From the NCBI RefSeq assembly GCF_000237865.1, contig NC_017459.1, positions 390,001-422,000 on the forward strand: DNA of 32,000 nucleotides, in the 5' to 3' direction. The position numbers were made by a program, and so were the translations under genes. Each line of letters opens with the position of its first letter. The first letter of the stretch is position 1. The stretch is from Haloquadratum walsbyi C23 (GTDB lineage: Archaea > Halobacteriota > Halobacteria > Halobacteriales > Haloferacaceae). The notes beneath the pieces are model-generated. The model was given only the letters and a program-made list of their open reading frames with translations, was not told the DNA's origin and ran no database searches. Shown piece after piece: positions 12,084 to 26,696 of the stretch.

Positions 12084-13075
12084 AAGCCACCGAAGGGATG
12101 TTCAACGAGTCGGTCGTCTACGTCACCAAACAGGGTACGCAAGTCCGCACCGACGGCGGTCGCATCGTTGTCTGGGACGTTGACGGCGACGAGGGCGAGC
12201 TCGCCTCCTTCCCGACCGAGAAGCTGGATACAATCAATGTCTTCGGCGGCGTCAACTTCTCAACACCGTTCGTCGCCGAGGCGAACAAACATGGGATCAT
12301 CCTCAATTACTTCACTGAGAACGGGAAGTATCGCGGCAGCTTCGTGCCCGAAAAGAACACTATCGCCGAGGTACGACGAGCACAGTACGCGCTTGGGACG
12401 ACCGCAGAGGTCGACATTGCCGCTGCGATGATTGCCGGGAAGATTCGAAATGCTCGGACGCTGCTCTCACGAAAGGGCGTTTATGGGACAGACATGCTCA
12501 AAGATCTTGGCTTGCGGGCGACAACCGTTGCGACGAAAGATGACCTCCGTGGCGTCGAGGGCGAAGCAGGCGGGCGATATTTCAGCCAACTTAACGAGAC
12601 GCTGACCGACGGCTGGACGTTTGAAAAACGGACCAAGCGACCACCAGAGGATCACATCAACTCACTGCTTTCGCTGACCTACGTGTTCATGAAAAACGAA
12701 GTGTTGAGCGCGTTACGACAGTATAACCTCGATCCGTTCCTCGGTGTTCTGCATGTCGACCGTCACGGTCGACCGTCACTTGCTCTTGATCTACAGGAAG
12801 AGTTCCGACCGATCTTTTGTGACGCGTTCGTCACTCGGCTGGTGAACCGCGGTGTCATAACGCACGACCAGTTCACCAAAGACAACCATCTGGGTGACGA
12901 CGCGTTCAAAACCTACTGCTCAAAATTTGATGAGTTCATGCAGGAGGAGTTCACGCACCCATATTTTGAGTACACTGTCACACGGCGGAAGTCGATTCGC
13001 CAGCAGGCGATCCTGTTGCGGAAAGCAATCACTGGTGAGTTGGACGAGTATCATGCCCTGACCTTCTCAAAATAA
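12080..13075 (+). CDS. cas1: Cas1 integrase
   Basis: About 331 aa, between cas4 and cas2. ATG 12080 overlaps the cas4 stop (ATGA); the track ORF begins at TTG 12065. The N-terminal beta-rich part (VVYVTKQGTQVRTDGGRIVV) and C-terminal helical part are typical Cas1 layout. Confidence 0.9.
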   Translation: MKATEGMFNESVVYVTKQGTQVRTDGGRIVVWDVDGDEGELASFPTEKLDTINVFGGVNFSTPFVAEANKHGIILNYFTENGKYRGSFVPEKNTIAEVRRAQYALGTTAEVDIAAAMIAGKIRNARTLLSRKGVYGTDMLKDLGLRATTVATKDDLRGVEGEAGGRYFSQLNETLTDGWTFEKRTKRPPEDHINSLLSLTYVFMKNEVLSALRQYNLDPFLGVLHVDRHGRPSLALDLQEEFRPIFCDAFVTRLVNRGVITHDQFTKDNHLGDDAFKTYCSKFDEFMQEEFTHPYFEYTVTRRKSIRQQAILLRKAITGELDEYHALTFSK

Positions 13076-13077
13076 TC

Positions 13078-13350
13078 ATGCGCTTAGCAATTACATACGA
13101 CGTCAGCGACGACGGGAATCGGCGGCAGGTGTATCAAACGCTCCAACGATATGGAGCATGGCGACAATTCAGTGTTTTTGAAGTCGATATTACCAAAGCC
13201 GAGCGTGTTGAGCTTGAAAACGAGCTGGAAGCCAAAATCGAACCCAATGACGGTGATCGCGTTCGGATCTATCGGTTGTGTAAGGCCTGTCAGGACAAGA
13301 CGACCAATCTTGGTATGGAACCACCTGATGAGCAATCGAACGTGCTCTAG
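13078..13350 (+). CDS. cas2: Cas2
   Basis: 90 aa. MRLAITYDVSDDGNRRQVYQTLQRYG...QFSVFEVD shows the typical Cas2 ferredoxin-fold N-terminus (YD motif). It starts 2 nt after the cas1 stop, directly upstream of the leader and array. Confidence 0.88.
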   Translation: MRLAITYDVSDDGNRRQVYQTLQRYGAWRQFSVFEVDITKAERVELENELEAKIEPNDGDRVRIYRLCKACQDKTTNLGMEPPDEQSNVL

Positions 13351-13465: not shown

Positions 13466-15074
13466 GTTGCAACGAAGAGAAAACCCGCTAAGGGATTGAA
13501 ACCCTTCTAATTTGGTGCACCGTTGAGACAGTGACATCGTTGCAACGAAGAGAAAACCCGCTAAGGGATTGAAACAAACCGAGTGACTGCCAGGCGTCTC
13601 CTGCCTGCCGGTTGCAACGAAGAGAAAACCCGCTAAGGGATTGAAACGGGATTGAAGTAGCTCCCGGAATTCTCCCGCTTTAATGTTGCAACGAAGAGAA
13701 AACCCGCTAAGGGATTGAAACAAGCCGAATCGCTGGGTCAATTGAACATACTACGGTGGGTTGCAACGAAGAGAAAACCCGCTAAGGGATTGAAACGCTA
13801 TCATCATCGTCACCGCCACCACCGAATGATGGCGTTGCAACGAAGAGAAAACCCGCTAAGGGATTGAAACGCGGCTCCGTCTTCACGACTAAAACAGCAG
13901 AAGATCGTTGCAACGAAGAGAAAACCCGCTAAGGGATTGAAACGTTTATCTTCCTCAGGTTCGAGTTCAAACCCAATTTGTTGCAACGAAGAGAAAACCC
14001 GCTAAGGGATTGAAACATTCCTCAGTTTTCGAGATTGGTTGGTGCTAGCCATGTTGCAACGAAGAGAAAACCCGCTAAGGGATTGAAACAATTCTCTCAG
14101 ACTGTACTGTCGTTGTGAAGCGTCGTTGCAACGAAGAGAAAACCCGCTAAGGGATTGAAACCACGTTTGGTTGTCGGGCTGGCACGGTCAACCGCGTTGC
14201 AACGAAGAGAAAACCCGCTAAGGGATTGAAACCAGTCCCAAGTAGCGCAGCATCGTCCACCCAAGTAGGTTGCAACGAAGAGAAAACCCGCTAAGGGATT
14301 GAAACTATTTGTCACGGCATTGCCATCTGTATCAGTATCGGTATGTTGCAACGAAGAGAAAACCCGCTAAGGGATTGAAACTGATTATCATTCACACACC
14401 ATGACACATTCTGCTGCTGTTGCAACGAAGAGAAAACCCGCTAAGGGATTGAAACTAACTCTCCAAAGTGTACAAATTGCGGTTCTCATGGTTGCAACGA
14501 AGAGAAAACCCGCTAAGGGATTGAAACGCAGCCCCCGTCTTCACGACAATAAATCTGGTATAAAGTTGCAACGAAGAGAAAACCCGCTAAGGGATTGAAA
14601 CGAAAATGCAAGTACAGGAGTTGGTAAAACAACTTGTGCTGTTGCAACGAAGAGAAAACCCGCTAAGGGATTGAAACAATAGACAACAGTTTAAAGGAAT
14701 AGACAGTCTTTTAGGTTGCAACGAAGAGAAAACCCGCTAAGGGATTGAAACAATTGGATGTATGAGCAGTCTGTGAAAAATGGGTTCGTTGCAACGAAGA
14801 GAAAACCCGCTAAGGGATTGAAACTGCACGGAACTCTCGAATATCGATAAGATTACCTGTGTTGCAACGAAGAGAAAACCCGCTAAGGGATTGAAACATG
14901 ACTCCGACAGAGGACCCAGTGAATACTGTTGTTGCAACGAAGAGAAAACCCGCTAAGGGATTGAAACACATGGGCAACTGGCGTAGGGTTGACTGCCGTA
15001 GAGGGTTGCAACGAAGAGAAAACCCGCTAAGGGATTGAAACAACACGGGATGATGTTCGAAAGCTACGCCGAAT

Positions 15075-15222
15075 GTTGCAACGAAGAGAAAACCCGCTAA
15101 GGGATTGAAACCTGATGTTTTGGTCACTGCTCAGAAAAACACGGCAGCGTTGCAACGAAGAGAAAACCCGCTAAGGGATTGAAACCTGATGTTTTGGTCA
15201 CTGCTCAGAAAAACACGGCAGC
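15075..15222 (+). repeat. tandem duplication of one repeat-spacer unit (2 x 74 nt)
   Basis: Spacers 23 (15112-15148) and 24 (15186-15222) are identical: CTGATGTTTTGGTCACTGCTCAGAAAAACACGGCAGC. Confidence 0.95.
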
Positions 15223-15950
15223 GTTGCAACGAAGAGAAAACCCGCTAAGGGATTGAAACTTTCAAAGCCGACGGCGAACAGCACTGCCGGCAAGTGTTGC
15301 AACGAAGAGAAAACCCGCTAAGGGATTGAAACCTCTCAGCCTCAACGGCATTCTTTGCAGCCTTAATCGTTGCAACGAAGAGAAAACCCGCTAAGGGATT
15401 GAAACTATTTGCATGAGCTAACCCACGTTATCGCTGTTTAGTTGCAACGAAGAGAAAACCCGCTAAGGGATTGAAACTCCCCGTGGTCAAATCCGCTGTC
15501 TTAACTGTATTATGTTGCAACGAAGAGAAAACCCGCTAAGGGATTGAAACAGCACGGCTAACGACGTGGTGGATCTAAGTAAGCCGTTGCAACGAAGAGA
15601 AAACCCGCTAAGGGATTGAAACTGGTTGACCGGTGAACTGGGAACACCGGGAACACAGACGTTGCAACGAAGAGAAAACCCGCTAAGGGATTGAAACATT
15701 GCTATCATTGGCTATGTGCTGCTGCAACGTGTTGTTGCAACGAAGAGAAAACCCGCTAAGGGATTGAAACCGCCGAGGAGGCAGTCGCTGCCGTGCTGTC
15801 TGTTCGGTTGCAACGAAGAGAAAACCCGCTAAGGGATTGAAACACTCCGCGAGGATAGTAATTCAAAATTGGTGAAAAGTTGCAACGAAGAGAAAACCCG
15901 CTAAGGGATTGAAACGATGATCAGCCAGTTCAACATGATGATCCAGGTCG

Positions 15951-16096
15951 GTTGCAACGAAGAGAAAACCCGCTAAGGGATTGAAACGATGAGTCGTGAG
16001 CGTAGATCGTCTGTGGTTGATTGGTTGCAACGAAGAGAAAACCCGCTAAGGGATTGAAACGATGAGTCGTGAGCGTAGATCGTCTGTGGTTGATTG
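15951..16096 (+). repeat. tandem duplication of one repeat-spacer unit (2 x 73 nt)
   Basis: Spacers 35 (15988-16023) and 36 (16061-16096) are identical: GATGAGTCGTGAGCGTAGATCGTCTGTGGTTGATTG. Confidence 0.95.
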
Positions 16097-16895
16097 GTTG
16101 CAACGAAGAGAAAACCCGCTAAGGGATTGAAACACCACTTTCCTCGTGGATTCTAACACGTTGAGTTCGTTGCAACGAAGAGAAAACCCGCTAAGGGATT
16201 GAAACCCGGCGGCTTCGTCCAAGACAATCACGGAGGGTTGGTGTTGCAACGAAGAGAAAACCCGCTAAGGGATTGAAACACCAATAGGTTAGTTCTCGCC
16301 AGTGTTCATCATGTGTTGCAACGAAGAGAAAACCCGCTAAGGGATTGAAACACCATCTAGATCAAGACAGAAACCGGTCTGCCTCAGTGTTGCAATGAAG
16401 AGAAAACCCGCTAAGGGATTGAAACCCGATCCACCGAAATTCGTGAAGTGACTACCTGGTTGCAACGAAGAGAAAACCCGCTAAGGGATTGAAACGATAC
16501 GAGTTTTCTAACTTGGTTCGGACGGTCTGTTGCAACGAAGAGAAAACCCGCTAAGGGATTGAAACAGAGTCCCCGAGTCCGTCGAGATCCGGGAGTCCAA
16601 GTTGCAACGAAGAGAAAACCCACTAACCAATAAACCCTGCCGTAATCGTCAAACTCGCAATCATGAGGGCACAACTGAGCAGCCCTACTGAATTCTCAGG
16701 ATTTTCGAGTCATATTCTCACATTATTGATCTCAGTTTAATCGTCAGTAACAACACCTTCACACGAGCTATCCTTACCATCTTTGTCTTCCTGAGCTCAG
16801 AGTTTTCTCATGTTCACGGTCGAAGTTCTCCTGAATGACTGCCTTTCTCCTCAAACTCATGCTTATCTGAAGAGATGTTGGCGTTGATAACACCT

Positions 16896-16918
16896 AAATC
16901 CTCTATTGATGAGGATTT
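16896..16918 (-). terminator. hairpin at the 3' end of the integrase gene
   Basis: Perfect 8-bp inverted repeat AAATCCTC (16896-16903) / GAGGATTT (16911-16918) with a 7-nt loop, overlapping the integrase stop codon by 1 nt. Terminator function is only inferred. Confidence 0.3.
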
Positions 16919-18009
16919 TATAATCCAAATTGGTATATTTGCTCTCTATAGATTGTCTCAATATCCTCATAATATGTATGAATATATTCGTCCATTACAT
17001 CAAGATTCTCTAGTTTTGAACCACCGGGCGTATCACCGCGCATATATTTAACCAACTCTCGGCTCAAATCCTGTTCTACCCCCCAGTAAGTTGTAAATCG
17101 ATGACGACCATAGTGACTTGTTACTGCCCGGAATCTTTCAGTCTCAGCGTATTCTGGATGAAAATAATTTTTCCATATCTTATTAATGTCACTGTATTTA
17201 AGTTTTTGACGCCCAATTTTCGATAGGAACAGCCATGGCTCATTAATATCAGGGCGAATCAAAATATATCTCAAGAGTACTTCACGCAATTCATAATCCA
17301 ATGGAAGAACGCGGGGCTTTCGAGACTTATTTCGCTCTCTGTCGTGAGGAATATAAATAGCGTTTCTACGATCATCTAACGCTTTAGCGGTCCCCATTTT
17401 AGTATAATGATCTTCAATAACAGTATTAGAGAGATGAATTTCTGAGATTTTAATGTTGCATACCTCGCTTGCACGAAGCCCAAGTTTGAGTTGTATCAAG
17501 ACAAAAGCTTGATCTCGAATATTCGTGATTTCTTGTAATTTCTTTGATAGCTCATTCACAGTTAATCGTTGTAGCTTCTTTTGCGGTTCACCGCTGAGGT
17601 CAGCGGTTTTTTTTGCTAGATCAATTGGATTGTAGTCACGTGAGTGAGGGAATGCTGCATCATCCTGCCAATATTTGTACGCTTGATTAAGATACATCAG
17701 CCGATTTTTGATCGTCCCTGCCGCATTGCCACGCTCTTCCTGCAAGTAATCAATGAACCGACTCACATGGGTTTTATTTGGACATGCAAAATGGCGCTTC
17801 TCGTTGTACATGAATTCTTGCCATTGCTGAAATGAGCGACGGTACTCCTCGTCCGTTCCCTTCGCTAAGTCTTTTTTCGACAGTCGTTCATCTATATACA
17901 ACTCAAATGGATTTATTTCGATCGAATCAAATTTCTGGGTATACTTTGCAAGTGGATCCAAATCGCGATTGAACGCATCTGCAATTGTTTGCCGATCAGA
18001 ATCACGCAT
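16918..18009 (-). CDS. tyrosine recombinase / phage-type integrase
   Basis: Catalytic-domain motifs are LKLGLRASEVCNIKISEI (Arg I), TSHYGRHRFTTYWG (H-x-x-R) and a C-terminal Tyr region (DEYIHTYY). The N-terminal core-binding-like region is HVSRFIDYLQEERGNAAGTIKNRLMYLNQAYKYW...YNPIDLA. The track ORF extends to 18048. ATG 18009 (MRDSDRQ) overlaps the upstream ORF's stop as ATGCGTGA and is preferred. Confidence 0.85.
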   Translation of the reverse strand: MRDSDRQTIADAFNRDLDPLAKYTQKFDSIEINPFELYIDERLSKKDLAKGTDEEYRRSFQQWQEFMYNEKRHFACPNKTHVSRFIDYLQEERGNAAGTIKNRLMYLNQAYKYWQDDAAFPHSRDYNPIDLAKKTADLSGEPQKKLQRLTVNELSKKLQEITNIRDQAFVLIQLKLGLRASEVCNIKISEIHLSNTVIEDHYTKMGTAKALDDRRNAIYIPHDRERNKSRKPRVLPLDYELREVLLRYILIRPDINEPWLFLSKIGRQKLKYSDINKIWKNYFHPEYAETERFRAVTSHYGRHRFTTYWGVEQDLSRELVKYMRGDTPGGSKLENLDVMDEYIHTYYEDIETIYREQIYQFGL

Positions 18010-18451
18010 TATTTCTCTCCTGTTTTTGAATCCAGACTTCGTGGGCACTACTGCCGGCTACGGAGGCAGCCATGTGGAATGGATTATATGTATGAGGGTG
18101 ATTGACATGCCATTTAAGCCATTCATATAACCCCTCAATTACATACCAGTGCTGATATGTACGATCACGAGAAAACCGGGATAATAATTTTCCTGACCAT
18201 ACTTCAACATCAGTTGGTTGAGCTAATATACAATGTCGACCCTGTTCAGACATATGCTTCCTCCATCGACGTAAAAATAATTCCCAGTCTTCGCTCATCC
18301 GATCTGAAAGCTCAGTAGTCGCTCGGTATGACTCCCAAGTCGATGTATTTTGATACCGTCCCTCGAACTGGCATAATCGGCGGGCGGTTGGGACATCCGA
18401 GAGCTGTTTAAATATACCAAGCCGATTTTGTGGCGGTCGGAACTTTTCCAT
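18002..18451 (-). CDS. stand-alone integrase core-binding (SAM-like) domain-like protein
   Basis: 149 aa. AQPTDVEVWSGKLLSRFSRDRTYQHWYVIEGLYEWLKWHVNHPHTYNPF resembles the N-terminal core-binding domain of tyrosine recombinases, but no catalytic domain follows. It is translationally coupled (8-nt overlap) to the integrase. Confidence 0.5.
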   Translation of the reverse strand: MEKFRPPQNRLGIFKQLSDVPTARRLCQFEGRYQNTSTWESYRATTELSDRMSEDWELFLRRWRKHMSEQGRHCILAQPTDVEVWSGKLLSRFSRDRTYQHWYVIEGLYEWLKWHVNHPHTYNPFHMAASVAGSSAHEVWIQKQERNNA

Positions 18452-19304
18452 CAGATATTCCTCTCATTAATCATACATTGTAATACGGTGAGACTATCTA
18501 CAGCTTTCTGTGTAGTATTCTCCATAATACAACCGTTCTTGCCGCCTTTTGCTACTAATACTCTCACAATAGAATACTGACATATTAACTGTATATCAAC
18601 ATAGCAAGTTAGACACACAGGTTATTGTGGACTTCGAGATAGCTATAATTGACAATTAACCGATATTTGTGGACGATGAGTACATGATAATCAGAAGAAG
18701 CGTTACATATTGAGATGCAGGCTTTCAGATCCGAACATTTTCGCTCAAACCAGATGGGTTGATAAAACGATTAGTTCATGCATGCTCTAGCACATCTAAG
18801 TAACATGAGTCGTAGCGAAGGTAAAATCATTGTCGCATCATAGAATGCCCAACAATATTCATCACTAGGTCTTATATTGTCGGATTTAATTGGCTGGGAA
18901 CCTCAGAGGATAATTAAAAGAGATAATATATTAATAAACTACCTACATGCTATCTAGATGAATATGAGTGCCGAGGCCAGCTTTCTATCTACACACCTGC
19001 GAGAAGAAGTGTACGGACATGGGAGAATCGTGTCTGCTACCCGCTGAGAGAGGGCGGTCGTAATCTAAAGGCGAATAGAGCACACTCCGAGACTTCCAGG
19101 AGCGATTGCCCCCGGTCTCTACACTATCTGCTTAATCCAAGTCATGATTCACCGGGATACATAACTACCGGCACTCTTCCAAGACATATGAGAGCGCTCG
19201 TACTCGCAGAGAGCTCAGGAACAGTCAATAGTGATGCTGAAACGGCTGTTGATTACTATCAGGGAAATTTTCTTCCAGTTTCACAATTGATTGATGGAAT
19301 AAAG

Positions 19305-20244
19305 GGCTGTGTTGAATCGCCATACAGCGGTGGAATTCACTGTTTCACGGCTCGCTTGATGTTATAGACCACACACATCAGCGCGATTTCTCGGAACTCA
19401 CGGAACCAAGTACGCGCTCGCACGGCGAAGCCGAGCGAGCGCTTGACAGCCGAGTTCACTGTCTCGGTCATTGAGCGCTGATTGTAGCGTTGTTCGTCGA
19501 TTCTGGCGTTATGAGCGTGGTCGTACGGAGCGAAGATACGATGTTTGATGAGCGGGCGAATCCCGAGGTCACGAAGAGATTCGCGGAGCGATTGCTTGTC
19601 GTATCCCTTGTCGGCGGCGAGCGACCGCAGATCGCCCGCGTTTCGGCGGGCGATCTGCTCGGCAAGGTCTGCGTCACTTCCCTTCCGGTTCGTCGAACAG
19701 TGTACGTCGAGGACGGCCTGCGACGCTGTATCGACGAGTTTCGTGACCTTCAATTTCTGCACGCGGTAGCTGATTCGCTGGCAGTAGTGGCGGCTCGCAG
19801 CTGAGCGTTCGTAGAAGGTAGCGTCGATCGCACCGTGTTCGGAGGGGTCGTGCAGCTGCGCCGACTGGCGCAGCAGCACTCGACAGACGCTCATGCTGAT
19901 CCGGTCGAACGCCTTACACAACGTGGATGGTGAGGGGAGATCGGCCGCTTCAAGGCCGATCTCCCCGGTTATTTGTGGCATCTCCTTCAGCAGGTCAATC
20001 GTCATCCGGTAGGACGTGTCGAGGTAAATTCGGAGACAATGGAGGGAAACGAGCGCGTAGTCGGCGAATCCGCCGCCACCTTCCGGGGCGGCGGATTCGT
20101 CTCCGTCGCCAGTAACCCTTTGAGAAATCGGGACAATCTCGCTAGTGAAGCGGGAGATTTGCGTCATGGACATTCGCAGTCTCCCGCTTCAACTCCTTTG
20201 ATTTAACGACCCATCCCGACGCCGCCTAGCGATTCAACACAGCC
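19305..20244 (-). mobile_element. 940-bp insertion sequence (IS4/IS5-superfamily DDE type) with 16-bp terminal inverted repeats and 8-bp target-site duplication
   Basis: Left end GGCTGTGTTGAATCGC (19305-19320) is the exact reverse complement of right end GCGATTCAACACAGCC (20229-20244). It is flanked by direct repeats GAATAAAG (19297-19304 and 20245-20252). It has one transposase ORF and clearly higher GC than the flanking DNA. Confidence 0.9.
19337..20173 (-). CDS. DDE transposase (IS5/IS4-like)
   Basis: 278 aa. Candidate DDE residues lie in GAIDATFYE, LAADKGYD and YNQRSMTETVNSAVKRSLG (the Y-x-x-R-x-x-x-E-x-x-x-x-x-x-K pattern of IS4/IS5 enzymes). It fills the IS between the inverted repeats. 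Confidence 0.85.
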   Translation of the reverse strand: MSMTQISRFTSEIVPISQRVTGDGDESAAPEGGGGFADYALVSLHCLRIYLDTSYRMTIDLLKEMPQITGEIGLEAADLPSPSTLCKAFDRISMSVCRVLLRQSAQLHDPSEHGAIDATFYERSAASRHYCQRISYRVQKLKVTKLVDTASQAVLDVHCSTNRKGSDADLAEQIARRNAGDLRSLAADKGYDKQSLRESLRDLGIRPLIKHRIFAPYDHAHNARIDEQRYNQRSMTETVNSAVKRSLGFAVRARTWFREFREIALMCVVYNIKRAVKQ

Positions 20245-20715
20245 GAATAAAGCCATACGGTGATGTTGAGACTCGTATAATCACAGATTCCAACAGCTTA
20301 ATCTCGGGGTCATCGAATGTGTCCGAGGAACCAGAACAATCCAATGAGGATGCTCTGGAAGCCGCTACTTCTCTCCTCATTGAATCTGGTTCCGATTTTC
20401 ACGCTGTCGTCATTTTACTTACTACCGATGTGTTTCGAGAGGTTGTAGCTGAAGATTGGGACAACATAATCGAGGAGGTAAATGAGGATGCAATCTGGTG
20501 TCTCGGAACCAGTAGATCTGGTATTTCCAGCTGTGATATCGATAACCTGCAAGAGAACATTCGAGAGCTATTCATTTACGAACGTGTTGGCGTCGCTCCC
20601 ATTGATAGTGATACACGCGAGTCGTTGTTAGCCTCCGTCGAATCTCACGACAAGGAACTACAATAGTACCTTTCCGAACCCCTATAATAGATGACGGGCG
20701 ATTGTTGCATATGAC

Positions 20716-22512
20716 TTGGACCGACGTGATATCATGAATTCTAACCCTGAGATTTCGCCGTTGAACGAGGAAATCATGTCAGATAATGGAAAGGGATCCC
20801 TCTTTTACCGGGTACACCCTTACCCCACTAAGGTTCCTCCATCTATTCTAAAACAACTGATCGAGCACTACACTGATCCTGGTGATTTGGTACTTGATCC
20901 GTTCTGCGGTAGCGGCGCAACAGGATACGCTGCAAAGCTCTCCGGGCGGGACTTTTCAATCTCAGATCTTAGTCCCTACGCAGTCCATATTGCTCGAGGA
21001 TACACTGAATCTTGCTCGACAGATGAGATCGACGATGCATTAGAGACCGTTTTCACTATCCTCAAAGAGACCCGAGATACCTACAAAACGGCTTGTCGAT
21101 CCTGCCAACGGCAAGTGGAAGGTCGATATTGGGTCTGGTCGTGGGAATTTGAGTGCCCAACATGCGAAAATACTTGGACGCTAGATCCTGATGAAGGGCA
21201 GTCGGGCCGAGGTAAAGTAACATGTCCAGACTGCGACACAGAACACTCACAGAGCGACGTACATTCTGGTCAAGATGTTCCGATTCGAGTTGCGTATAAA
21301 TGCTCGGAGTGCAACAGCAAGGCCGTCGAAAAGCAGGTATCTCCAGCAGAACAGGATCGACTTGTCGCACTGGAAGACTCCGACGTTGGATCGAGTCGCT
21401 ACGACCGACCGATGATGCACGTCGAAGATGGCACTGAGTGGGGTGACCAGTACCGTGACGGCAATCACGAGTACGTAAACTCGGTGTCTTCGTTCTTCAC
21501 TGGTCGAAATTGGGAGATATTGGTCGAACTCTGGGAAACACTAGAGTCAGTGGAAAATAATCTGGTGCGAAATGCCCTCGAATTTGCCTTTACTGCGTCT
21601 CTTTACACCTCCTCAAAAATGGTTCGCTGCCGGCCTAAACGAGATGGCCGAAGTAATAATCCAGGAACGCTATATCTCCCACCCTTAGCCCTCGAACAGA
21701 ATGTCTTCAGGGTTTTCGAAAGACGGGTTAAGAAAGTACGGAAGCTCAAGATTAAACTGTCAGGTGCAGAAGCCCAACAAATGCTGACCTCTGATGGAAT
21801 CGCCGCACGTGGGGAAGGGACCATTGGGGTTCGAGATGCGCGAGATCTCGAGGACCTGAAAGACGATTCAGTAGATTACGTGGTCACTGATCCCCCGTTC
21901 GGTGATAGTCTTCAGTACGCAGAATTGAATTTCATCCCAGAGTCGTTTATTGGCACTTTCACTGAGGCAGAGAACGAAATCGTCGTCAACGATACCCGAT
22001 CAGTTTCTGAGACGGAATATCTTGATCGGATGGGGGACGCATTTGAAGAGGCGTATCGCGTCCTCAAGTTGGGGGGGTATATATCTATTATCTTTAATAA
22101 TACCTCGCCACTCGTTTGGGCAGGGATGAAACGACGTCTCCTCAAATCTGGGTTCGAACTTCCAGCAGTAACAGGAATTGTCAAGGGACACGCAAGTAAG
22201 AACCAGACCGTGTATGCAGGATCAACGAGCCGGTTCGACCCTGTATTCCACGCACGTAAACCGAGAGACTTAGAGTCCGTATCCGAGATTATCGAATATT
22301 CAGAGGAAGAGAGTGAGGAACTCGCCATTGATGTCGCATCAGGGGTTATCGAAGAGGATTCTCACAAAGAGTTCGCGGATTCAATCGCGTATATCCACAG
22401 TCAGGTGACTCAACGTCTTCTGGAGATGGATGCAATCGTTCATCCTCCCTCTCCAAAAACACTCAAGCGTCTCTTAGAAGACGCGGGTCAAGCTGATTTC
22501 GTCGAGGCCTGA
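20716..22512 (+). CDS. DNA methyltransferase (N6-adenine or N4-cytosine), motif order X/I - Zn-ribbon insert - IV
   Basis: HPYPTKVPPSILKQLIEHYTDPGDLVLDPFCGSGATG (AdoMet motif I, residues 61-70) lies near the N-terminus. Four CxxC motifs follow (CRSC, CPTC, CPDC, CSEC; 21094-21312). Catalytic DYVVTDPPFGDS is at residues 392-395, then LKLGGYISIIFNN. The likely ATG start is 20734 (MNSNPE); the track starts at TTG 20716. Confidence 0.85.
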   Translation: MDRRDIMNSNPEISPLNEEIMSDNGKGSLFYRVHPYPTKVPPSILKQLIEHYTDPGDLVLDPFCGSGATGYAAKLSGRDFSISDLSPYAVHIARGYTESCSTDEIDDALETVFTILKETRDTYKTACRSCQRQVEGRYWVWSWEFECPTCENTWTLDPDEGQSGRGKVTCPDCDTEHSQSDVHSGQDVPIRVAYKCSECNSKAVEKQVSPAEQDRLVALEDSDVGSSRYDRPMMHVEDGTEWGDQYRDGNHEYVNSVSSFFTGRNWEILVELWETLESVENNLVRNALEFAFTASLYTSSKMVRCRPKRDGRSNNPGTLYLPPLALEQNVFRVFERRVKKVRKLKIKLSGAEAQQMLTSDGIAARGEGTIGVRDARDLEDLKDDSVDYVVTDPPFGDSLQYAELNFIPESFIGTFTEAENEIVVNDTRSVSETEYLDRMGDAFEEAYRVLKLGGYISIIFNNTSPLVWAGMKRRLLKSGFELPAVTGIVKGHASKNQTVYAGSTSRFDPVFHARKPRDLESVSEIIEYSEEESEELAIDVASGVIEEDSHKEFADSIAYIHSQVTQRLLEMDAIVHPPSPKTLKRLLEDAGQADFVEA

Positions 22513-22515
22513 AAC

Positions 22516-24147
22516 ATGTGTGAGAAAGAATCGCCTACACTTGAGGATGAGCTATCTGTGGAACGAGCGGGGACTAATTCGACTGTTTCGCGCCAAGAAG
22601 ACGTTTCAAAACGCAAGGCGACGGGCGCGTTCTACACGCCTCCAGAACTGGCAAACTTCGTCGTTGACCGGGGACTGAGCCTTCGAAACACGTCTGAGCG
22701 GCTCTCTGCTCTTGATCCTTCTGTCGGTGGTGGGGTGTTCTTAGACAGTATTGCCCAGCGGTTTCAAAATGAACCAGAAATCTCTCTTGAGCTGGTCGGT
22801 GTTGATATCGAAGAGCGTGCGCTTGCTGCCACCGAAGATGTTCTAGCAGCATACGACCAGTCGACGATGACGGTCAACCTAGCTCATGACGACTTCTTCC
22901 GCTGGCGTTGGTCGGCGATGGACGCTGATTTCGACCTCATCGTCGGGAACCCACCGTGGGGACTGACAAGTTCCGAGGCGAACGGGTCACCGATTTACCG
23001 GGAGTTGTCCCTGGATTTCGTCCATCATAGTCTCCAACTGCTGGGCGATAACGGATGTCTAAGCCTCCTCCTTCCGGGAACATGGGTATTCTCACGCTCA
23101 GATACAGAATTCCGCGATTTTCTCCTTGGCCTGAATCGGTCTATTGAGATATATCAAATCAGTCCGGACTGGTTCCCTGATGCAACTTTTACAGTTGAAC
23201 CGGTTGTCTTGATCGTGGGGTCGAAAGCGGGCGAACAGGATCCACAGCTATCAATCTATGACGCGACAAGCATCCCGATAAACAGTAACCAACTCTATCA
23301 GTTGCCGTTAGACCGCTTCCACGACTATCCCGCACAGAAGTTCCCGATCGCCCCAGCATCTTTTCATAGATTCATTAATGGGTCTGAACTGTCGAACATA
23401 GTCACTACCCCACCCGGACTCGGGTATCAGCCGTATAGCGGTGTTAAAACATATGCGAACAAGACGTATGTCTACGACGCCGTGAGCGCCATGGAAAATA
23501 AAAATAATGATGATATCGAGATTCGGATGTCGCTTGACGACAGCGAAAAGCAAAATGGCGTTGAGTCTGATTGTCCTGTTCTTATACCATATGATAAAGG
23601 CGGGCGAACCAGAGATAAAGATTGGACGGCATTCTGGACTCCCACTCGACACTACCTTCGATGGGACGCTGAGGCAGTTACATACTACCGCTCGAAAGGC
23701 GGTCTCAGAAATGAAGAGACGTATTTCACTGACGGGATTCACTTCTCATCGAGTGGCCGAAACTGCCCAGTGTTTCGGCTCTCAACCGGACTAGTCTACG
23801 ACGCCGACTTCCCGTTCGTCCCAGTCGAGGGTCGTGAGCAGTGGGATCTCCTGTCCCTGCTCAACAGTCCACCGTGCATGTATTTGATCAAGCACTGTAT
23901 CAATCCAACTGTTCATTTCAAAAACCAGGACTTCGAAGACGTTCCGCTCCCGGAGTTCAAGCAGATGGATACTGATGTGCTAGTTAACACAGGTCGCCAA
24001 ATCACGAAGGTCCGAAAAGGAGAGGGACGAGTTCCAGTCGACATGTATCGGAAGCTATCGAAGGAAAGCGCGGAGTTGTACGGATTAAGTGACGACGAGG
24101 AGGAGACGGTGTGGAAGTGGTTTGAGCGAGCTCGGCTTCAGTCCTGA
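22516..24147 (+). CDS. gamma-class N6-adenine DNA methyltransferase (Eco57I/TaqI-like) with C-terminal target-recognition domain
   Basis: GAFYTPPELANFVV, LDPSVGGGVFL (motif I) and DLIVGNPPWG (motif IV, NPPW) appear in gamma order, followed by a C-terminal region of about 350 aa. It starts 3 nt after the upstream methyltransferase stop. Confidence 0.85.
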   Translation: MCEKESPTLEDELSVERAGTNSTVSRQEDVSKRKATGAFYTPPELANFVVDRGLSLRNTSERLSALDPSVGGGVFLDSIAQRFQNEPEISLELVGVDIEERALAATEDVLAAYDQSTMTVNLAHDDFFRWRWSAMDADFDLIVGNPPWGLTSSEANGSPIYRELSLDFVHHSLQLLGDNGCLSLLLPGTWVFSRSDTEFRDFLLGLNRSIEIYQISPDWFPDATFTVEPVVLIVGSKAGEQDPQLSIYDATSIPINSNQLYQLPLDRFHDYPAQKFPIAPASFHRFINGSELSNIVTTPPGLGYQPYSGVKTYANKTYVYDAVSAMENKNNDDIEIRMSLDDSEKQNGVESDCPVLIPYDKGGRTRDKDWTAFWTPTRHYLRWDAEAVTYYRSKGGLRNEETYFTDGIHFSSSGRNCPVFRLSTGLVYDADFPFVPVEGREQWDLLSLLNSPPCMYLIKHCINPTVHFKNQDFEDVPLPEFKQMDTDVLVNTGRQITKVRKGEGRVPVDMYRKLSKESAELYGLSDDEEETVWKWFERARLQS

Positions 24148-24148
24148 A

Positions 24149-25936
24149 TTATCTCGACTCCAGATCCTCGACCAAAGTGAACGGATCGAGATAGACCCTC
24201 CATCCGCACTCTACAAGTCGTTCTAGGTTGTCACGGTGACTCCAATCACCGTCCACCCACATCCACCATTCGTCGTCGGAATATTCTGGCTCAATCTGAC
24301 CGTTTTGGACGGGGAGGTTGAGTTTACCGAACCAGCCCTTCCCTCCTTCTTCTCTGGCTCGTCGACCTTCTTCATTCTTCGTCGGTTTCGACTTGATGTA
24401 CACCGAACTGTCGTCATCCTCGAAGCTGAACTCCGCCCGTGCAAACGTCGGGCGCCACATATCCTCAGCCTCACGGAACGTAATGAGGCGGTCGACGAAC
24501 TCATCATATGGTACGTCTTTGATAAAGGAGTACCATCGGCCGCCTGTGCCTATCCGATCGCCGAACTGGAGCGACGATTCTTCGATCAGATGACTCAGTG
24601 CCCAATTAGTTGGTGTGCTATTTGTCCCATTATATGCTTGATAATTAACGGAACTCCCGATCAGTTGTCGACCCGTTCTCACCCACTCGGAACTTGATTT
24701 CCCGCTAGCGTTCGATGTGATTTGATCGACAATCTGCTCGAGGATACGTCGAGTGACAGGGTCGTCAAATCGTTCACGAGAGAAGTTCTGTTCAGTAACA
24801 CTCGTCTCTTCATAGAAATCGTCGACTGGACGTTGATACAGCGAACGTAGTGCGTTTCGGTAGGCGATACGTTGGGTCTCATCCGGGTGGTTCCAGTACT
24901 CCGCCAAGCCATCGATATCACCGGACTCACAAAGGTCGCGTATCTGTGGCAATATCGATTCGGCGTTATCCACAATGTCGCGTCCCGCTTCGACTTCGGG
25001 TATCTCCTCTGCAGCCTTGTCGAGAACGGCACGGAGAAGGGGCTGACCCTCTTCGGCGAACTGATCAAGTTCTGCGTCTCCATCCCCGATTTTCTTCCAG
25101 GCCGCTTTCAGTCCAAATCTATCCGCAGGGGTCCCTCCCGAGGTAATCTGATCATCCAGAAAGGCCATATTCAATTTGTGCTCATCGGTACCTCGGTAAT
25201 CATGTCGAGCACGGTGTTCTGTTAGACCTAATGGAGACAAAGGGAAGCCATTCTGTTTGAACTGTTCGAATCGGTCGAGTAATCGTCCTCCGACGAGGTC
25301 TATGATTTCATTGTCCGATTTGTTTTCGAGACGGTCTTTAAGCCAAGTTACGAACTCAACAGGGTCGTCAAAGGGTGCGTACGCTTCAAGAAGTGCCTGT
25401 TTGATTCCAGTGTCGGGATCAGTCGGTTCAGAATCTAAGTATTCGTACGAGGGGTACGAGACGAAGTCTAGAAAAAGCTCGTATTGCGTTGGAATCCATT
25501 TCCTGACGTATCGTCGATTACCGAATATTACGTCACCGAACGCTGTATCCTGTGGAAGTCCTTCAACGGTCGAATCAGGGGCTCTTGTTCGTGAACCGAG
25601 GAACGAGAATTCTTCCAGTGTTTCGATTGCTTTGTACGACTTATTCGGTTCCTCAGACACGTTCTTCTCGTCTTTCCAGTGGGTAACTTCTAAGACTAAC
25701 GCGCGGTCGGCGGTCTGTGATCCGTCAGCGACTTTGAATATTCCGAGGTCGAAAACATCGGGAACATCAGCGTCGGAATATTGCGGTGTGTACTGGTGAA
25801 CGATCCTCCAATCTTCAGACTTTGGAAAGGTCAGCTCTGCACAAGCCTTCGTTAGAGCTTCAAAAAGATCGCCAGCATGGACAGAGTCTCCACGGGCGCC
25901 ATGGAAGCCGCTACCACTTATGACGCTATCACTCAT
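24149..25936 (-). CDS. 595-aa acidic protein of unknown function (candidate nuclease/effector of the methyltransferase module)
   Basis: Long ORF with haloarchaeal acidic composition. Its start overlaps the upstream 255-aa ORF by 8 nt, and its stop codon lies 1 nt from the methyltransferase-2 stop. I recognised no Walker A, HNH, GIY-YIG or PLD motif. There is a weak PD-(D/E)xK-like pattern, VPDVFDLGIF...LVLEVTHWK, near the N-terminus. Confidence 0.75.
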   Translation of the reverse strand: MSDSVISGSGFHGARGDSVHAGDLFEALTKACAELTFPKSEDWRIVHQYTPQYSDADVPDVFDLGIFKVADGSQTADRALVLEVTHWKDEKNVSEEPNKSYKAIETLEEFSFLGSRTRAPDSTVEGLPQDTAFGDVIFGNRRYVRKWIPTQYELFLDFVSYPSYEYLDSEPTDPDTGIKQALLEAYAPFDDPVEFVTWLKDRLENKSDNEIIDLVGGRLLDRFEQFKQNGFPLSPLGLTEHRARHDYRGTDEHKLNMAFLDDQITSGGTPADRFGLKAAWKKIGDGDAELDQFAEEGQPLLRAVLDKAAEEIPEVEAGRDIVDNAESILPQIRDLCESGDIDGLAEYWNHPDETQRIAYRNALRSLYQRPVDDFYEETSVTEQNFSRERFDDPVTRRILEQIVDQITSNASGKSSSEWVRTGRQLIGSSVNYQAYNGTNSTPTNWALSHLIEESSLQFGDRIGTGGRWYSFIKDVPYDEFVDRLITFREAEDMWRPTFARAEFSFEDDDSSVYIKSKPTKNEEGRRAREEGGKGWFGKLNLPVQNGQIEPEYSDDEWWMWVDGDWSHRDNLERLVECGWRVYLDPFTLVEDLESR

Positions 25937-26696
25937 GTGTTTCGTCTCTAAGTAGATGGTTTCCTATTCGGTCCATATTGTTACGAAATTCATATTTATT
26001 TTCGGCCTTCAAAACTGTTGTTCCTGTTGGTAGCTCTCCACTAGCGCAAGGGTTAGAATGTTCAAGTATGGCGGCAGTATTATTGCTTCTTAGTTCACTC
26101 AGAAGATCTACCTGTTCTCTTAGACGCTCACATGATTTGTTTAATGACACTTCCATACCGAGGGTTGGGAAAATCGGTTCCCCCTGGTCTTCTGCGGCGA
26201 TCGGACCATTAGAGTTGGTTTCGGTCTTATACCGCCTCTCACCTGAACTGCTTCCACTCCAAGATACGATTACATGCTCTCCTACGAATGGATCCGAATG
26301 TTGCTCAATCTCGAAAGTCCCCGAATAGACAAGTAAATCTGGCCGGTCTCGCGATCGTAAGAACGGACTTCCTTCTCTAAAAAAAGACAGTGACTGTTGA
26401 TCTCGCTTGACTTCAAAAATTGGCGAAACCCAAGATAGGAGATCCGAGATATCCGCTTGCTGGTTTATTCCCGAGCCTTGGGTTACACGACGGTATGGTA
26501 TATGATTCGTGTGCGAAAGATCTAGCTGTTCGTCAACCGGAACAAAGTCATTTTTTAGGCAAAATTGAATTAATTTTGCTATGGTGATTGACTCAAAGCG
26601 TTTCGGTCTTCCAGGTGGTTCGTTTATAATTTCTACCCCTTCTTCGGTTAATGATAGAGAAAGCTCACTCAGTGCTTGTTTACTCCAATGATCCAT
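25929..26696 (-). CDS. 255-aa protein of unknown function (candidate small subunit or nuclease)
   Basis: First gene of the minus-strand pair, with coding-like composition. A possible PD-(D/E)xK signature is ADISDLLSWVSPIFEVKRD (D85...E95-V-K97; 26406-26444), followed by RPDLLVY. Confidence 0.7.
   Translation of the reverse strand: MDHWSKQALSELSLSLTEEGVEIINEPPGRPKRFESITIAKLIQFCLKNDFVPVDEQLDLSHTNHIPYRRVTQGSGINQQADISDLLSWVSPIFEVKRDQQSLSFFREGSPFLRSRDRPDLLVYSGTFEIEQHSDPFVGEHVIVSWSGSSSGERRYKTETNSNGPIAAEDQGEPIFPTLGMEVSLNKSCERLREQVDLLSELRSNNTAAILEHSNPCASGELPTGTTVLKAENKYEFRNNMDRIGNHLLRDETHE

What the first reader, a model, noticed from the sequence alone, without database searches (positions are those of the whole stretch)
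19188..20666. IS insertion cleanly splits a 176-aa ORF at the head of the methyltransferase operon; the gene can be reconstructed exactly
The 940-bp IS has perfect 16-bp inverted repeats (19305-19320 and 20229-20244) and an 8-bp duplication, GAATAAAG. Deleting the IS and one duplicate joins ...QLIDGIK (ending 19304) in frame to PYGDVETRII... (from 20253). That frame runs into listed ORF 20319-20666 and gives a 176-aa acidic protein starting MRALVLAESSG. The intact inverted repeats and duplication indicate a recent insertion. The IS has markedly higher GC than its surroundings. The hit gene is the first gene upstream of the MTase pair, so the insertion may have inactivated a module component, such as a regulator or toxic effector. 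It may also have changed MTase expression through read-out transcription.
Basis: seen in the sequence. Interest (0 to 1): 0.6.

Follow-up and report, generated by a model that had tools for sequence, protein, structure and literature searches.

The report
Known IS splits a methylase-partner gene
A catalogued 940-bp insertion sequence (ISHwa3) has cleanly cut a real 176-codon gene in a Haloquadratum walsbyi defence island, which is ordinary in itself, but the broken gene belongs to an unnamed protein family that sits next to the DNA methylases of haloarchaeal BREX-type anti-virus systems.

Summary
There is a 940-bp element at 19305-20244 with perfect 16-bp terminal inverted repeats and an 8-bp duplication, GAATAAAG. 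Its 278-aa IS5-family transposase lies on the minus strand. Its GC is 58%, against 42-49% in the flanks. It matches ISHwa3, published in 2011 as a single-copy IS of H. walsbyi C23, inside the strain-specific island DV3.

Removing the IS and one duplicate restores a 176-aa ORF. Intact, collinear 176-aa homologues (63-93% identity) exist, and the empty target site is seen in related contigs. The reconstruction is therefore right.

The family has about 96 clusters at 50% identity and is under purifying selection. It is nearly always next to a large DNA methyltransferase, in three settings:
- this two-methylase module;
- DUF499/PglZ/DUF1156-methylase loci;
- canonical BREX type 5 loci, between pglX and pglZ or the helicase, where it is annotated "hypothetical".

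The family itself has no Pfam, PADLOC or NCBIfam hit. Its most divergent relatives link it to DUF6884/DpdC/YaaA.

The transposase points away from the methylases. The methylase gene has its own conserved TATA-like spacer. The IS event is ordinary and already known; the gene family is the modestly new part.

The parts
19154..19165 (+). Conserved promoter-like motif GGGATACATAAC, centred about 28 bp upstream of the ATG. This fits the TATA box of a leaderless haloarchaeal transcript (inference).
   Evidence: GGATACATAAC is invariant in all six aligned class-A loci, although the surrounding upstream DNA diverges.
19188..19304 (+). 5' part of the disrupted gene (codons 1-39, MRALVLAESSGT...QLIDGIK). 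It now reads through into the IS as a 59-aa ORF, 19188-19367.
19297..19304 (.). Left copy of the 8-bp target-site duplication GAATAAAG.
   Evidence: A single copy is present at the empty site in L001.
19305..20244 (-). ISHwa3, a 940-bp IS5-family insertion sequence (ISH9-type, ISHvo3-like).
   Evidence: Length 940, inverted repeats 21/25 and 8-bp duplication are identical to the ISHwa3 entry in Table S8 of PMC3119063. It is 91.4% identical in DNA over its full length to ISHvo3 on Haloferax volcanii pHV4. That copy also has an 8-bp duplication.
19305..19320 (+). Left terminal inverted repeat GGCTGTGTTGAATCGC.
19337..20173 (-). Intact DDE transposase, 278 aa, antisense to the disrupted gene and to the methylases.
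   Evidence: Pfam DDE_Tnp_1, E 2.4e-16. NCBIfam IS5 family transposase NF033579, 244.7 bits against a cut-off of 140. 266 identical residues against the 276-aa ISHvo3 transposase.
20229..20244 (-). Right terminal inverted repeat.
20245..20252 (.). Right copy of the 8-bp target-site duplication GAATAAAG.
20253..20666 (+). 3' part of the disrupted gene (codons 40-176 plus stop). The 115-aa GTG ORF 20319-20666, annotated in public records as 'hypothetical protein [Haloquadratum walsbyi]', is a fragment of it.
   Evidence: (P0009).
20667..20733 (+). Highly conserved spacer between the disrupted gene and methylase 1. It contains CGAA (20675-20678) and CTATAATA (20682-20689), a candidate BRE/TATA for an independent methylase promoter (inference).
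   Evidence: Mean identity is 93% across six loci, including loci whose upstream gene is only 66-77% identical in protein.
20716..22512 (+). DNA methyltransferase 1 (N6_N4 type with an internal zinc ribbon, PglXI/BrxXI-like). The likely start is the ATG at 20734.
   Evidence: Pfam N6_N4_Mtase, 4e-22. PADLOC PglXI, 3.3e-69. It is full length compared with its homologues.
22516..24147 (+). DNA methyltransferase 2 (N6_Mtase / Eco57I-like, PglX-like C-terminal region).
   Evidence: Full length, 543/543 aligned.
24149..26696 (-). Two convergent conserved genes of unknown function (595 aa and 255 aa) that complete the module in all related loci.
   Evidence: Synteny in L002, L006, L013 and L014. No hits in Pfam, PADLOC, NCBIfam or PDB sequences.

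Best explanation
The element is ISHwa3, an IS5-family (ISH9-type, ISHvo3-like) insertion sequence of Haloquadratum walsbyi C23.

Shown:
- Its DDE transposase inserted it into the target GAATAAAG between codons 39 and 40 of a 176-codon gene and duplicated 8 bp.
- The insertion separates the N-terminal 39 residues from the remaining 137 residues. The N-terminal piece carries the family's conserved ExSxT segment and the promoter. This is a null allele.
- The gene is real. It is the first gene of a conserved module: gene, then a PglXI-like N6/N4 methylase, then an Eco57I-like methylase, then two convergent unknown genes.
- The module lies in the strain-specific island DV3, next to a type I-D-like CRISPR-Cas locus and an integrase.
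- The protein family is small, is not matched directly by any of the family libraries searched here, and is mostly haloarchaeal. It is found almost exclusively beside large DNA methyltransferases, including between pglX and pglZ/brxHII of BREX type 5 loci and in DUF499/PglZ/DUF1156-methylase loci.

Inferred:
- The protein is a methylase-associated DNA-binding accessory of the DUF6884/DpdC/YaaA superfamily, so the insertion has knocked out one component of a methylation-based defence module.
- The two methylases are probably still transcribed from their own promoter in the conserved 67-bp spacer, not from the IS.
- The event is young relative to the divergence of the gene, but it may predate arrival of the island in C23.
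For: IS identity:
- Anatomy.
- Transposase family.
- 91% identity in DNA to ISHvo3, which also makes an 8-bp duplication.
- Exact match to the published ISHwa3 descriptors (940 bp, repeats 21/25, duplication 8 bp, one complete copy in C23).
- Match to the description and size of island DV3.
- The C-terminal fragment is a RefSeq H. walsbyi protein from a 3,148,033-bp contig.

Gene reality:
- 15 homologues of 171-176 aa, eight of them exactly 176 aa (P0001-P0008) at 63-91% identity and full coverage, with no gap at the junction.
- Empty site in L001.
- dN/dS of 0.16-0.24 among intact copies.
- 96 clusters at 50% identity in a 1.84-billion-protein library.

Module membership:
- Identical gene order in L002-L006, L013 and L014.

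Methylase association beyond this module:
-.
- Annotated BREX-5 loci in Halobacterium salinarum pHS3, Natrinema pellirubrum, Halorubrum ezzemoulense and Halorarius halobius.

Superfamily lead:
- The family profile finds P0095, P0102, P0106 and P0107 at E 2e-10 to 1e-4.
- These four hit Pfam DUF6884 (P0106 at 37 bits, above the cut-off of 30), YaaA, and PADLOC DpdC/PDC-M57A.
- hhalign probability 99.1%.

Promoter inference.

Relative youth of the insertion.
Against: - The window protein itself hits no Pfam, PADLOC or NCBIfam model.
- A very confident AlphaFold model (pLDDT 96.6) finds only generic flavodoxin-like or vWA folds in the PDB, with TM at most 0.45. YaaA (5caj) is not among the top 50.
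- The DUF6884 signature CxxxK is replaced by ExSxT. In the window copy the Gly of the LSAxxG-like motif is Ser.
- The hhalign test is partly circular, because its targets were found with the same profile.
- No expression or methylome data were available, so the state of the methylases is inferred only from a conserved spacer.
- The window copy carries six private substitutions at positions invariant in its five closest relatives. One of them is G54S, at a Gly that is at least 90% conserved. Some decay, or some earlier impairment, cannot be excluded.
- Identity of the window with strain C23 is inferred, not proven base for base.
Confidence: 0.8

Rival explanations
1. Polar knock-out. The 176-aa gene and the two methylases form one transcript from the promoter at about 19160, so the IS abolishes methylase expression and the whole module is dead in this strain.
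For: - The genes are co-oriented and only 67 bp apart.
- Methylase 2 starts 4 bp after methylase 1.
- The gene order is strictly conserved.
- The transposase is antisense, so it cannot supply read-through.
Against: - The 67-bp spacer is more conserved (93%) than the upstream coding sequence. It holds a CGAA...CTATAATA motif about 45 bp before the methylase ATG, as expected for an archaeal promoter.
- Both methylase genes and the two convergent genes remain full length, with no decay.
Confidence: 0.2
2. The family is the BrxB/BrxF-like 'inactive STAND' (iSTAND) sensor described for BREX and DUF499-centred BREX-related systems, not a DUF6884/DpdC relative.
For: [quoted passage not shown]
- It evolves faster than its neighbours.
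- It sits in loci with a DUF499 ATPase, a standalone PglZ and a DUF1156 methylase, which is where PMC12839542 reports an iSTAND gene.
- ESSGT after strand 1 and LLTTD after strand 3 could be read as eroded Walker A and B motifs (inference).
Against: - None of 71 members hits the BrxB or BrxF models of PADLOC.
- Foldseek finds no AAA+/STAND/ORC neighbour among the top 50.
- The three-stranded cap after strand 4 that defines BrxB-type iSTAND is absent from the model.
- BREX-5 loci that carry the family also carry a separate BrxB gene.
Confidence: 0.12
3. The insertion did not happen in strain C23. The gene was already interrupted in the donor, and the broken module arrived with the 25-kb island DV3. 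'Recent' then refers only to the age of the event, not to activity of the IS in this genome.
For: - ISHwa3 has a single complete copy in C23 and no strain-specific insertions were scored for it.
- It lies inside the strain-specific replacement DV3 together with an integrase.
- Its GC (58%) and its closest relatives (Halorubrum and Haloferax, 91%) point to a high-GC haloarchaeal origin.
Against: - The module itself has Haloquadratum-like GC.
- Its closest relatives in metagenomes and one MAG (91-93% protein identity) are uninterrupted.
- No contig with the same filled junction was found, but none was specifically searched for.
Confidence: 0.35
4. The split ORF is a chance reading frame and the IS landed in non-coding DNA.
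For: No family library hit for the reconstructed protein.
Against: - Full-length homologues exist down to about 30% identity.
- dN/dS is 0.16-0.24.
- An AlphaFold model has pLDDT 96.6.
- Synteny is conserved.
Confidence: 0.01

Closest known systems
ISHwa3 / ISHvo3 (IS5 family, ISH9-type insertion sequences of haloarchaea)
   Same: - Length of 940 bp.
- Terminal repeat GGCTGTGTTGAATCGC, 21/25 over the extended repeat.
- 8-bp target duplication.
- A single DDE transposase of about 277 aa.
- DNA 91% identical, and transposase 96% identical, to ISHvo3.
   Different: Nothing material. This appears to be the catalogued ISHwa3 copy itself. What the accessible literature and RefSeq protein naming do not state is which gene it interrupts.
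Transposon-disrupted brxHII of the Halobacterium salinarum R1 BREX-5 locus (PMC7002104)
   Same: A haloarchaeal methylation-based defence locus in which one non-methylase component is interrupted by an IS while the rest stays intact. The broken gene disappears from the protein databases.
   Different: The component is different (a helicase there, the small methylase-adjacent protein here), and so are the IS and the system.
DUF6884 (PF21818; B. subtilis YfjM), YaaA/DUF328 (PF03883) and DpdC
   Same: - Divergent members of the family hit these models above or near threshold.
- They share the I/L-S/T-x-x-x-G segment that aligns with LSAxxG, and an alpha/beta core.
- DpdC is a precedent for this superfamily acting on DNA bases inside a restriction-modification-like defence system.
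   Different: - The CxxxK motif is replaced by ExSxT.
- There is no direct model hit for the core family.
- No Foldseek match to YaaA (5caj).
- An extra conserved C-terminal Y-x-R-V-G-V-A-P-I motif.
- The partner is a methyltransferase, not a transglycosylase.
BrxB / BrxF iSTAND components of BREX
   Same: A small, fast-evolving alpha/beta protein encoded inside BREX-type loci.
   Different: - No sequence-model match.
- No P-loop structural neighbours.
- No cap subdomain.
- It coexists with a bona fide BrxB.
BREX type 5 (haloarchaeal) and DUF499-centred BREX-related systems
   Same: Relatives of the disrupted gene are embedded in these loci, directly after pglX or after the DUF1156 methylase. 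Methylase 1 of the window is PglXI-like.
   Different: The window's own module has no BrxC/DUF499 ATPase, no PglZ and no helicase. Instead it has two methylases and two unknown proteins. It is therefore not a BREX system by definition.

Membership tests
IS5 family insertion sequence (ISH9-type; ISHwa3) | DDE transposase of the IS5 family | tested here: met
   Pfam DDE_Tnp_1, 2.4e-16. NCBIfam transpos_IS5_2, 244.7 bits against a cut-off of 140.
IS5 family insertion sequence (ISH9-type; ISHwa3) | Terminal inverted repeats bounding the element | tested here: met
   16/16 perfect and 21/25 extended. Unique in the window.
IS5 family insertion sequence (ISH9-type; ISHwa3) | 8-bp target-site duplication typical of this group | tested here: met
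   GAATAAAG on both sides. The ISHvo3 copy on pHV4 has GTTTGCAG on both sides. Table S8 lists a duplication of 8 bp.
IS5 family insertion sequence (ISH9-type; ISHwa3) | Identity with the ISfinder reference sequence of ISHwa3 | not testable with these tools
   ISfinder is not available. Only the published descriptors (940 bp, repeats 21/25, duplication 8 bp, one copy in C23) could be matched.
DUF6884 / YaaA (DUF328) / DpdC superfamily | Significant match to PF21818 or PF03883 | tested here: inconclusive
   The window protein and 67 of 71 family members give no hit. Four divergent members do: P0106 scores 37 bits against a cut-off of 30 for DUF6884 and 29.8 against 29.6 for YaaA. Two members reach 1.4e-7 against PADLOC DpdC. 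These four are found by the family profile at E 2e-10 to 1e-4. hhalign gives 99.1%.
DUF6884 / YaaA (DUF328) / DpdC superfamily | CxxxK and LSAxxG motifs (PMC11701544) | tested here: not met
   The N-terminal position reads ExSxT (E8, S10, T12) instead of CxxxK. The second motif is retained only as I-[TL]-[DS]-x-x-G, and the window copy has S54 in place of the Gly.
DUF6884 / YaaA (DUF328) / DpdC superfamily | 'Cantaloupe' alpha/beta fold like YaaA (PDB 5caj) | tested here: inconclusive
   Foldseek of two models (pLDDT 84 and 96.6) against the PDB gives only generic flavodoxin-like or vWA hits with TM at most 0.46, and 5caj is not in the top 50. In the library of predicted viral structures (BFVD), a phage DUF6884 protein appears at rank 16 with TM 0.31. 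No direct superposition was possible.
BrxB/BrxF iSTAND | Match to BrxB/BrxF models, or P-loop (STAND/ORC) structural neighbours | tested here: not met
   None of 71 members hits PADLOC BrxB or BrxF. No AAA+/STAND chain appears among the top 50 Foldseek hits.
BrxB/BrxF iSTAND | Three-stranded antiparallel cap inserted after strand 4 | tested here: not met
   In the pLDDT-96.6 model, DSSP shows helices 127-131 and 135-141 between strands 120-125 and 144-149, and no beta insert. The criterion comes from PMC12839542.
BREX system (for the window's own module) | Presence of PglZ and a BrxC/PglY ATPase | tested here: not met
   No PglZ, BrxC or DUF499 homologue is encoded in 19-27 kb of the window. 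The 595-aa and 255-aa proteins hit nothing. Relatives of the disrupted gene do sit in true BREX-5 loci.
Restriction-modification controller (C) protein or other transcription regulator | Helix-turn-helix DNA-binding domain | tested here: not met
   No HTH family hit. The model is a single five-stranded alpha/beta domain.

The most novel reading that the evidence does not exclude
The disrupted gene represents an unrecognised, conserved component of haloarchaeal methylation-based immunity. It is a roughly 175-aa DpdC/YaaA/DUF6884-like DNA-binding protein, possibly one that flips bases. It is encoded immediately after the specificity-determining methylase in BREX type 5, in DUF499/PglZ BREX-related loci and in a two-methylase module. 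It would work with the methylase, for example by reading the modification state of target sites or by assisting methylation. In several BREX-5 loci it lies with pglX in a variable cassette between conserved flanks. If this is correct, the published gene lists of BREX type 5 are incomplete, and strain C23 is a natural knock-out.
Probability: 0.4. Interest if true: 0.55.

Novelty: already known. Interest (0 to 1): 0.3.

Why it matters
As an IS insertion it matters little. ISHwa3 and island DV3 were described in 2011, and IS hits in defence islands are routine.

There are two practical points:
- The public 115-aa 'hypothetical protein' of H. walsbyi is a fragment of an interrupted gene and should be annotated as a pseudogene.
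- The intact family is a consistent, unnamed neighbour of PglX/PglXI-type methylases. It lies inside the reference BREX type 5 locus of Halobacterium salinarum pHS3, yet it is absent from the published component lists and from the individual gene deletions named in the Haloarcula hispanica study. It is therefore a concrete gene to delete in a tractable haloarchaeon, to see whether BREX-5 methylation or defence depends on it.

Tried and rejected
Searches and tests that gave nothing or were rejected:
- Direct family assignment of the 176-aa protein by Pfam, PADLOC and NCBIfam gave nothing. The only hit was a sub-threshold IcmF-related match, treated as noise.
- Sequence-profile searches of the PDB with alignments A1, A3, A4 and with P0106 gave nothing significant and did not find YaaA.
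- The BrxB/iSTAND idea was tested and not supported.
- The anti-defence or viral-origin idea was rejected. No relative was found in 2.9 million viral contigs.
- The 595-aa and 255-aa module proteins gave no hits in Pfam (even at E up to 1), PADLOC, NCBIfam or PDB sequences.
- The genome-contig scan did not return H. walsbyi itself. The species representative presumably lacks DV3.
- The one match of at least 99% to the IS in the plasmid collection is a 35-bp fragment and is irrelevant.
- The Haloarcula hispanica BREX-5 record could not be fetched.
- No tRNA gene is present in the window that could mark an integration site.
- The sigma-70 promoter scanner was not used, because it does not model archaeal promoters.
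Full report
**1. Observation.**
Positions 19305-20244 hold a 940-bp element. It is bounded by perfect 16-bp inverted repeats (GGCTGTGTTGAATCGC), which extend imperfectly to 21 of 25 positions. It is flanked on both sides by GAATAAAG. The repeat occurs nowhere else in the window, even with two mismatches allowed, and the chance expectation is 0.03. The 8-mer occurs only at the two flanks. The element has 58.4% GC, against 42.0% and 48.6% in the adjacent 2 kb. Joining 19188-19304 to 20253-20666 gives a 531-nt frame of 176 codons.

**2. The mobile element.**
The only long ORF inside is 19337-20173 on the minus strand, 278 aa. It is a DDE transposase: Pfam DDE_Tnp_1 at 2.4e-16, and NCBIfam IS5-family equivalog at 244.7 bits against a cut-off of 140.
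- The whole element is 91.4% identical to ISHvo3 of Haloferax volcanii pHV4 and to copies in Halorubrum.
- It is 71-89% identical (mostly above 80%) to copies in Natrinema, Haloarcula, Natribaculum, Halobacterium and others.
- The pHV4 copy is flanked by an 8-bp duplication of its own, GTTTGCAG, and its transposase is 96% identical.

The genome paper for Haloquadratum walsbyi C23 lists ISHwa3 as ISH9-type, 940 bp, inverted repeats 21/25, target duplication 8 bp, with one complete copy in C23 (PMC3119063, Table S8). Every descriptor matches.

[quoted passage not shown] The window contains exactly that:
- Csa3, Cas6, Csc2, Cas3, Cas4, Cas1 and Cas2 genes at 2.9-13.4 kb;
- a CRISPR array with a 37-nt repeat at 13466-16566;
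- a tyrosine integrase at 16918-18048;
- the IS, two DNA methyltransferases, and then pilin-like DUF7261-7263 genes.

The C-terminal ORF fragment is a RefSeq 'hypothetical protein [Haloquadratum walsbyi]' from a 3,148,033-bp contig. I conclude that the window is the DV3 region of strain C23 and that the IS is the catalogued ISHwa3. This is inferred from matching descriptors, not from a base-for-base comparison.

**3. The interrupted gene is real and the reconstruction is exact.**
- A search of 5.8 billion proteins returned 15 homologues of 171-176 aa. Eight are exactly 176 aa with 63-91% identity and full coverage. The H. walsbyi 115-aa fragment was also returned.
- In the alignment there is no gap at the K39|P40 junction.
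- At the DNA level, contig L001 (MAG GCA_042218875.1) reads ...CAATTGATTGGTGGAATAAAGCCATACTGTGATG..., the unoccupied target with a single GAATAAAG. L013 and L014 carry intact copies at 93% and 91% protein identity.
- Among intact copies dN/dS is 0.16-0.24. This is purifying selection, but weaker than on the neighbouring methylase 2 (0.09-0.14) and the 595-aa gene (0.05-0.11).
- The window copy against its nearest relatives gives 0.31-0.35, not about 1, and neither half carries a stop or frameshift. The insertion is therefore young relative to the roughly 5% nucleotide divergence.
- The window copy does carry six private substitutions at positions invariant in its five closest relatives. One is G54S, at a glycine conserved in at least 90% of the family.

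**4. Consequence for the gene.**
The N-terminal 39 codons carry the first strand and the conserved E8-S10-T12 segment. They now run into the IS as a 59-aa ORF. The remaining 137 codons have lost their promoter and start codon. This is a null allele (inference from anatomy).

**5. Relation to the methylases.**
In every close relative the order is the same:
- the 176-aa gene;
- a 593-aa N6_N4 methylase with an internal zinc ribbon (PADLOC PglXI, 3.3e-69);
- a 543-aa N6_Mtase/Eco57I-like methylase;
- two convergent genes of 595 and 255 aa with no recognisable domains;
- a TBP paralogue.

In the window all of these are full length, so the IS is the only lesion in the module.

The transposase is antisense to this array. 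A TTAAAT about 27 bp upstream of its ATG fits a leaderless transposase promoter that fires away from the methylases (inference).

The 67-bp spacer between the 176-aa gene and methylase 1 is 93% identical across six loci, including loci whose upstream gene is only 66-77% identical in protein. It contains CGAA...CTATAATA about 45 bp before the methylase ATG. A comparable invariant GGATACATAAC lies about 28 bp before the ATG of the 176-aa gene. I read these as two separate archaeal promoters. On that reading the methylases are probably still expressed. This is inference only.

**6. What the protein family is.**
- The window protein hits nothing in Pfam, PADLOC or NCBIfam.
- A profile search of 1.84 billion cluster representatives found 96 proteins at E of 1e-3 or better. 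Nearly all full-length ones are 163-239 aa and single-domain.
- No relative occurs in 2.9 million viral contigs.
- With the 71-sequence alignment, AlphaFold gives a very confident model (pLDDT 96.6, pTM 0.92): a five-stranded alpha/beta/alpha domain.
- The four most divergent profile hits (P0095, P0102, P0106, P0107; E 2e-10 to 1e-4) match Pfam DUF6884. P0106 scores 37 bits against a cut-off of 30, and also matches YaaA/PF03883 at 29.8 against 29.6.
- In PADLOC, members of the family (presumably these same four; not identified individually) match DpdC (1.4e-7) and the candidate family PDC-M57A.
- hhalign between the core family and these four gives 99.1% probability over 155 columns. This is partly circular, because the four were found with the same profile.

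Pfam's curators describe DUF6884 as a relative of the DNA-binding protein YaaA, with CxxxK and LSAxxG motifs and a predicted base-flipping pocket (PMC11701544). DpdC (DUF328) converts preQ0 to ADG in DNA within the restriction-modification-like Dpd system (PMC12839542).

In the present family CxxxK is replaced by ExSxT, and LSAxxG survives as I-[TL]-[DS]-x-x-G. There is also an additional strongly conserved Y-x-R-V-G-V-A-P-I near the C-terminus. I therefore treat the family as a probable, divergent offshoot of that superfamily with an altered pocket. Membership is not established.

**7. Gene neighbourhood of the family.**
I examined 45 contigs that carry a member: the window, 37 metagenome or genome loci, three more for divergent members, and four annotated megaplasmids. 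A large DNA methyltransferase lies within two genes in all but three contigs, which are short or decayed. Four arrangements recur.
- Class A is the two-methylase module above.
- Class B is DUF499 ATPase, standalone PglZ-like protein, DUF1156/N6_N4 methylase, DUF8076, the family gene, and sometimes a Cas4-like PD-(D/E)XK nuclease.
- Class C is BREX type 5. The upstream 1409-aa protein scores 1990 bits on the NCBIfam BREX-5 PglX model, and the flanks are BrxC-like and SNF2/BrxHII-like.
- In a few loci the family gene is convergent with a methylase. One is a low-GC, non-halophile-looking contig in which a DUF6884-like member faces an Eco57I-like methylase.

In annotated records the family gene, labelled 'hypothetical protein', sits between pglX and pglZ in Halobacterium salinarum R1 pHS3, Natrinema pellirubrum pNATPE02 and Halorubrum ezzemoulense Fb21. 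It sits between pglX and the helicase in Halorarius halobius. The Halorubrum locus also has a separate BrxB, so the family is not BrxB.

In class C, PglX (54-83% identity) and the family protein (69-75%) vary between loci, while the flanking BrxC (90-94%) and helicase (93-97%) are nearly constant. This suggests that the methylase and the small protein are exchanged or diversify together.

This protein is not mentioned in any of these:
- the original type 5 scheme, as summarised in PMC7002104;
- the 2026 comparative survey (PMC12839542);
- the individual gene deletions named in the Haloarcula hispanica type V study (10.64898/2026.04.28.721311).

**8. Alternative identity tested.**
The 2026 survey describes small, fast-evolving 'iSTAND' proteins (BrxB/BrxF) in BREX and in DUF499/PglZ loci. 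The present family shares the size, the rate of evolution and the context. It differs in four ways:
- it has no BrxB or BrxF model hit in any of 71 members;
- it has no P-loop structural neighbours;
- it has no beta cap after strand 4;
- it coexists with BrxB.
I rate this rival at about 0.12.

**9. Mechanism, with its status.**
- Shown: ISHwa3 inserted with an 8-bp duplication into codon 39/40 of a conserved gene. The gene is part of a conserved methylase module. The family is methylase-linked across three system types.
- Inferred: the protein is a DNA-binding accessory that acts with the methylase. The insertion removes that function. The methylases keep their own promoter.
- Not decidable from sequence: whether loss was neutral, or selected (for example to relieve a costly defence function). 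The same applies to whether the insertion occurred in C23 or in the island's donor. The IS is single-copy in C23 and of high-GC origin.

**10. Verdict.**
The observation and the main interpretation are correct. The event itself is an ordinary insertion by an already catalogued IS. The residual interest lies in the interrupted gene: an unnamed, conserved partner of PglX/PglXI-type methylases, including in canonical BREX type 5 loci. C23 is a natural knock-out of it.

Noticed in passing
window 2895-13350 and 13466-16566: A complete CRISPR-Cas locus (Csa3 regulator, Cas6, a 1017-aa large subunit with no Pfam hit, Csc2, Cas3 helicase, Cas4, Cas1, Cas2). It is followed by an array of about 43 repeats of the 37-nt unit GTTGCAACGAAGAGAAAACCCGCTAAGGGATTGAAAC. 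It matches the published crispr-1 locus of H. walsbyi C23.
   Followed up: partly
window 16918-18451 (minus strand): A tyrosine integrase (376 aa) and a 149-aa ORF with no hits lie between the CRISPR array and the disrupted gene. No tRNA gene is present anywhere in the window to mark an attachment site.
   Followed up: partly
L011, L015, L018, L022, L024, L026, L028 (BREX-5 loci): PglX (54-83% identity) and the small family protein (69-75%) form a variable cassette between nearly invariant BrxC (90-94%) and SNF2 helicase (93-97%) genes. This suggests allelic replacement or joint diversification of the methylase and its small neighbour.
   Followed up: partly
window 19188-24147 compared with L013: Mosaic divergence inside the module. 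The 176-aa gene differs from L013 by dS 0.115, but methylase 2 differs by dS 0.51. This implies recombination between module variants.
   Followed up: no
window 19347-19349 (codon 54 of the reconstructed gene): The window copy has Ser where at least 90% of the family has Gly, at the position aligning with the Gly of the DUF6884 LSAxxG motif. It is one of six private changes at sites invariant in the five closest relatives, and could reflect decay or earlier impairment.
   Followed up: partly
L001 9107-10567 (MAG GCA_042218875.1): An intact 176-aa gene is followed by a truncated methylase 1 (486 aa instead of 593). There is no second methylase, and the flanks are housekeeping genes (TGT, deoxyhypusine synthase, ArgZ-like). 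This looks like a decayed or relocated remnant of the module.
   Followed up: no
window 24149-26696 (minus strand): Two strongly conserved genes (595 and 255 aa; the 595-aa gene has dN/dS 0.05-0.11) always accompany the two methylases, yet match nothing in Pfam, PADLOC, NCBIfam or PDB sequences. They are candidates for the unknown effector of this module.
   Followed up: partly
L042 (Halobacterium salinarum R1 pHS3), L043, L044: A second unnamed conserved gene follows pglZ in the BREX-5 loci of Halobacterium salinarum and Halorubrum ezzemoulense (about 425 aa, 'hypothetical protein'). In Natrinema the pglX gene appears split into two ORFs.
   Followed up: no
H34, Haloarcula sinaiiensis plasmid NZ_CP073370.1 52089-53028: Another copy of this IS group (88% identical) overlaps an annotated 'Eco57I restriction-modification methylase domain-containing protein'. 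This is a second case of the IS type sitting in a methylase-related gene.
   Followed up: no
L002 376-621, L006 480-743: In more distant class-A loci an 81-87-aa ORF with a weak winged-helix signal (HTH_45, E 0.005) precedes the 176-aa gene. The window has the integrase region there instead.
   Followed up: no
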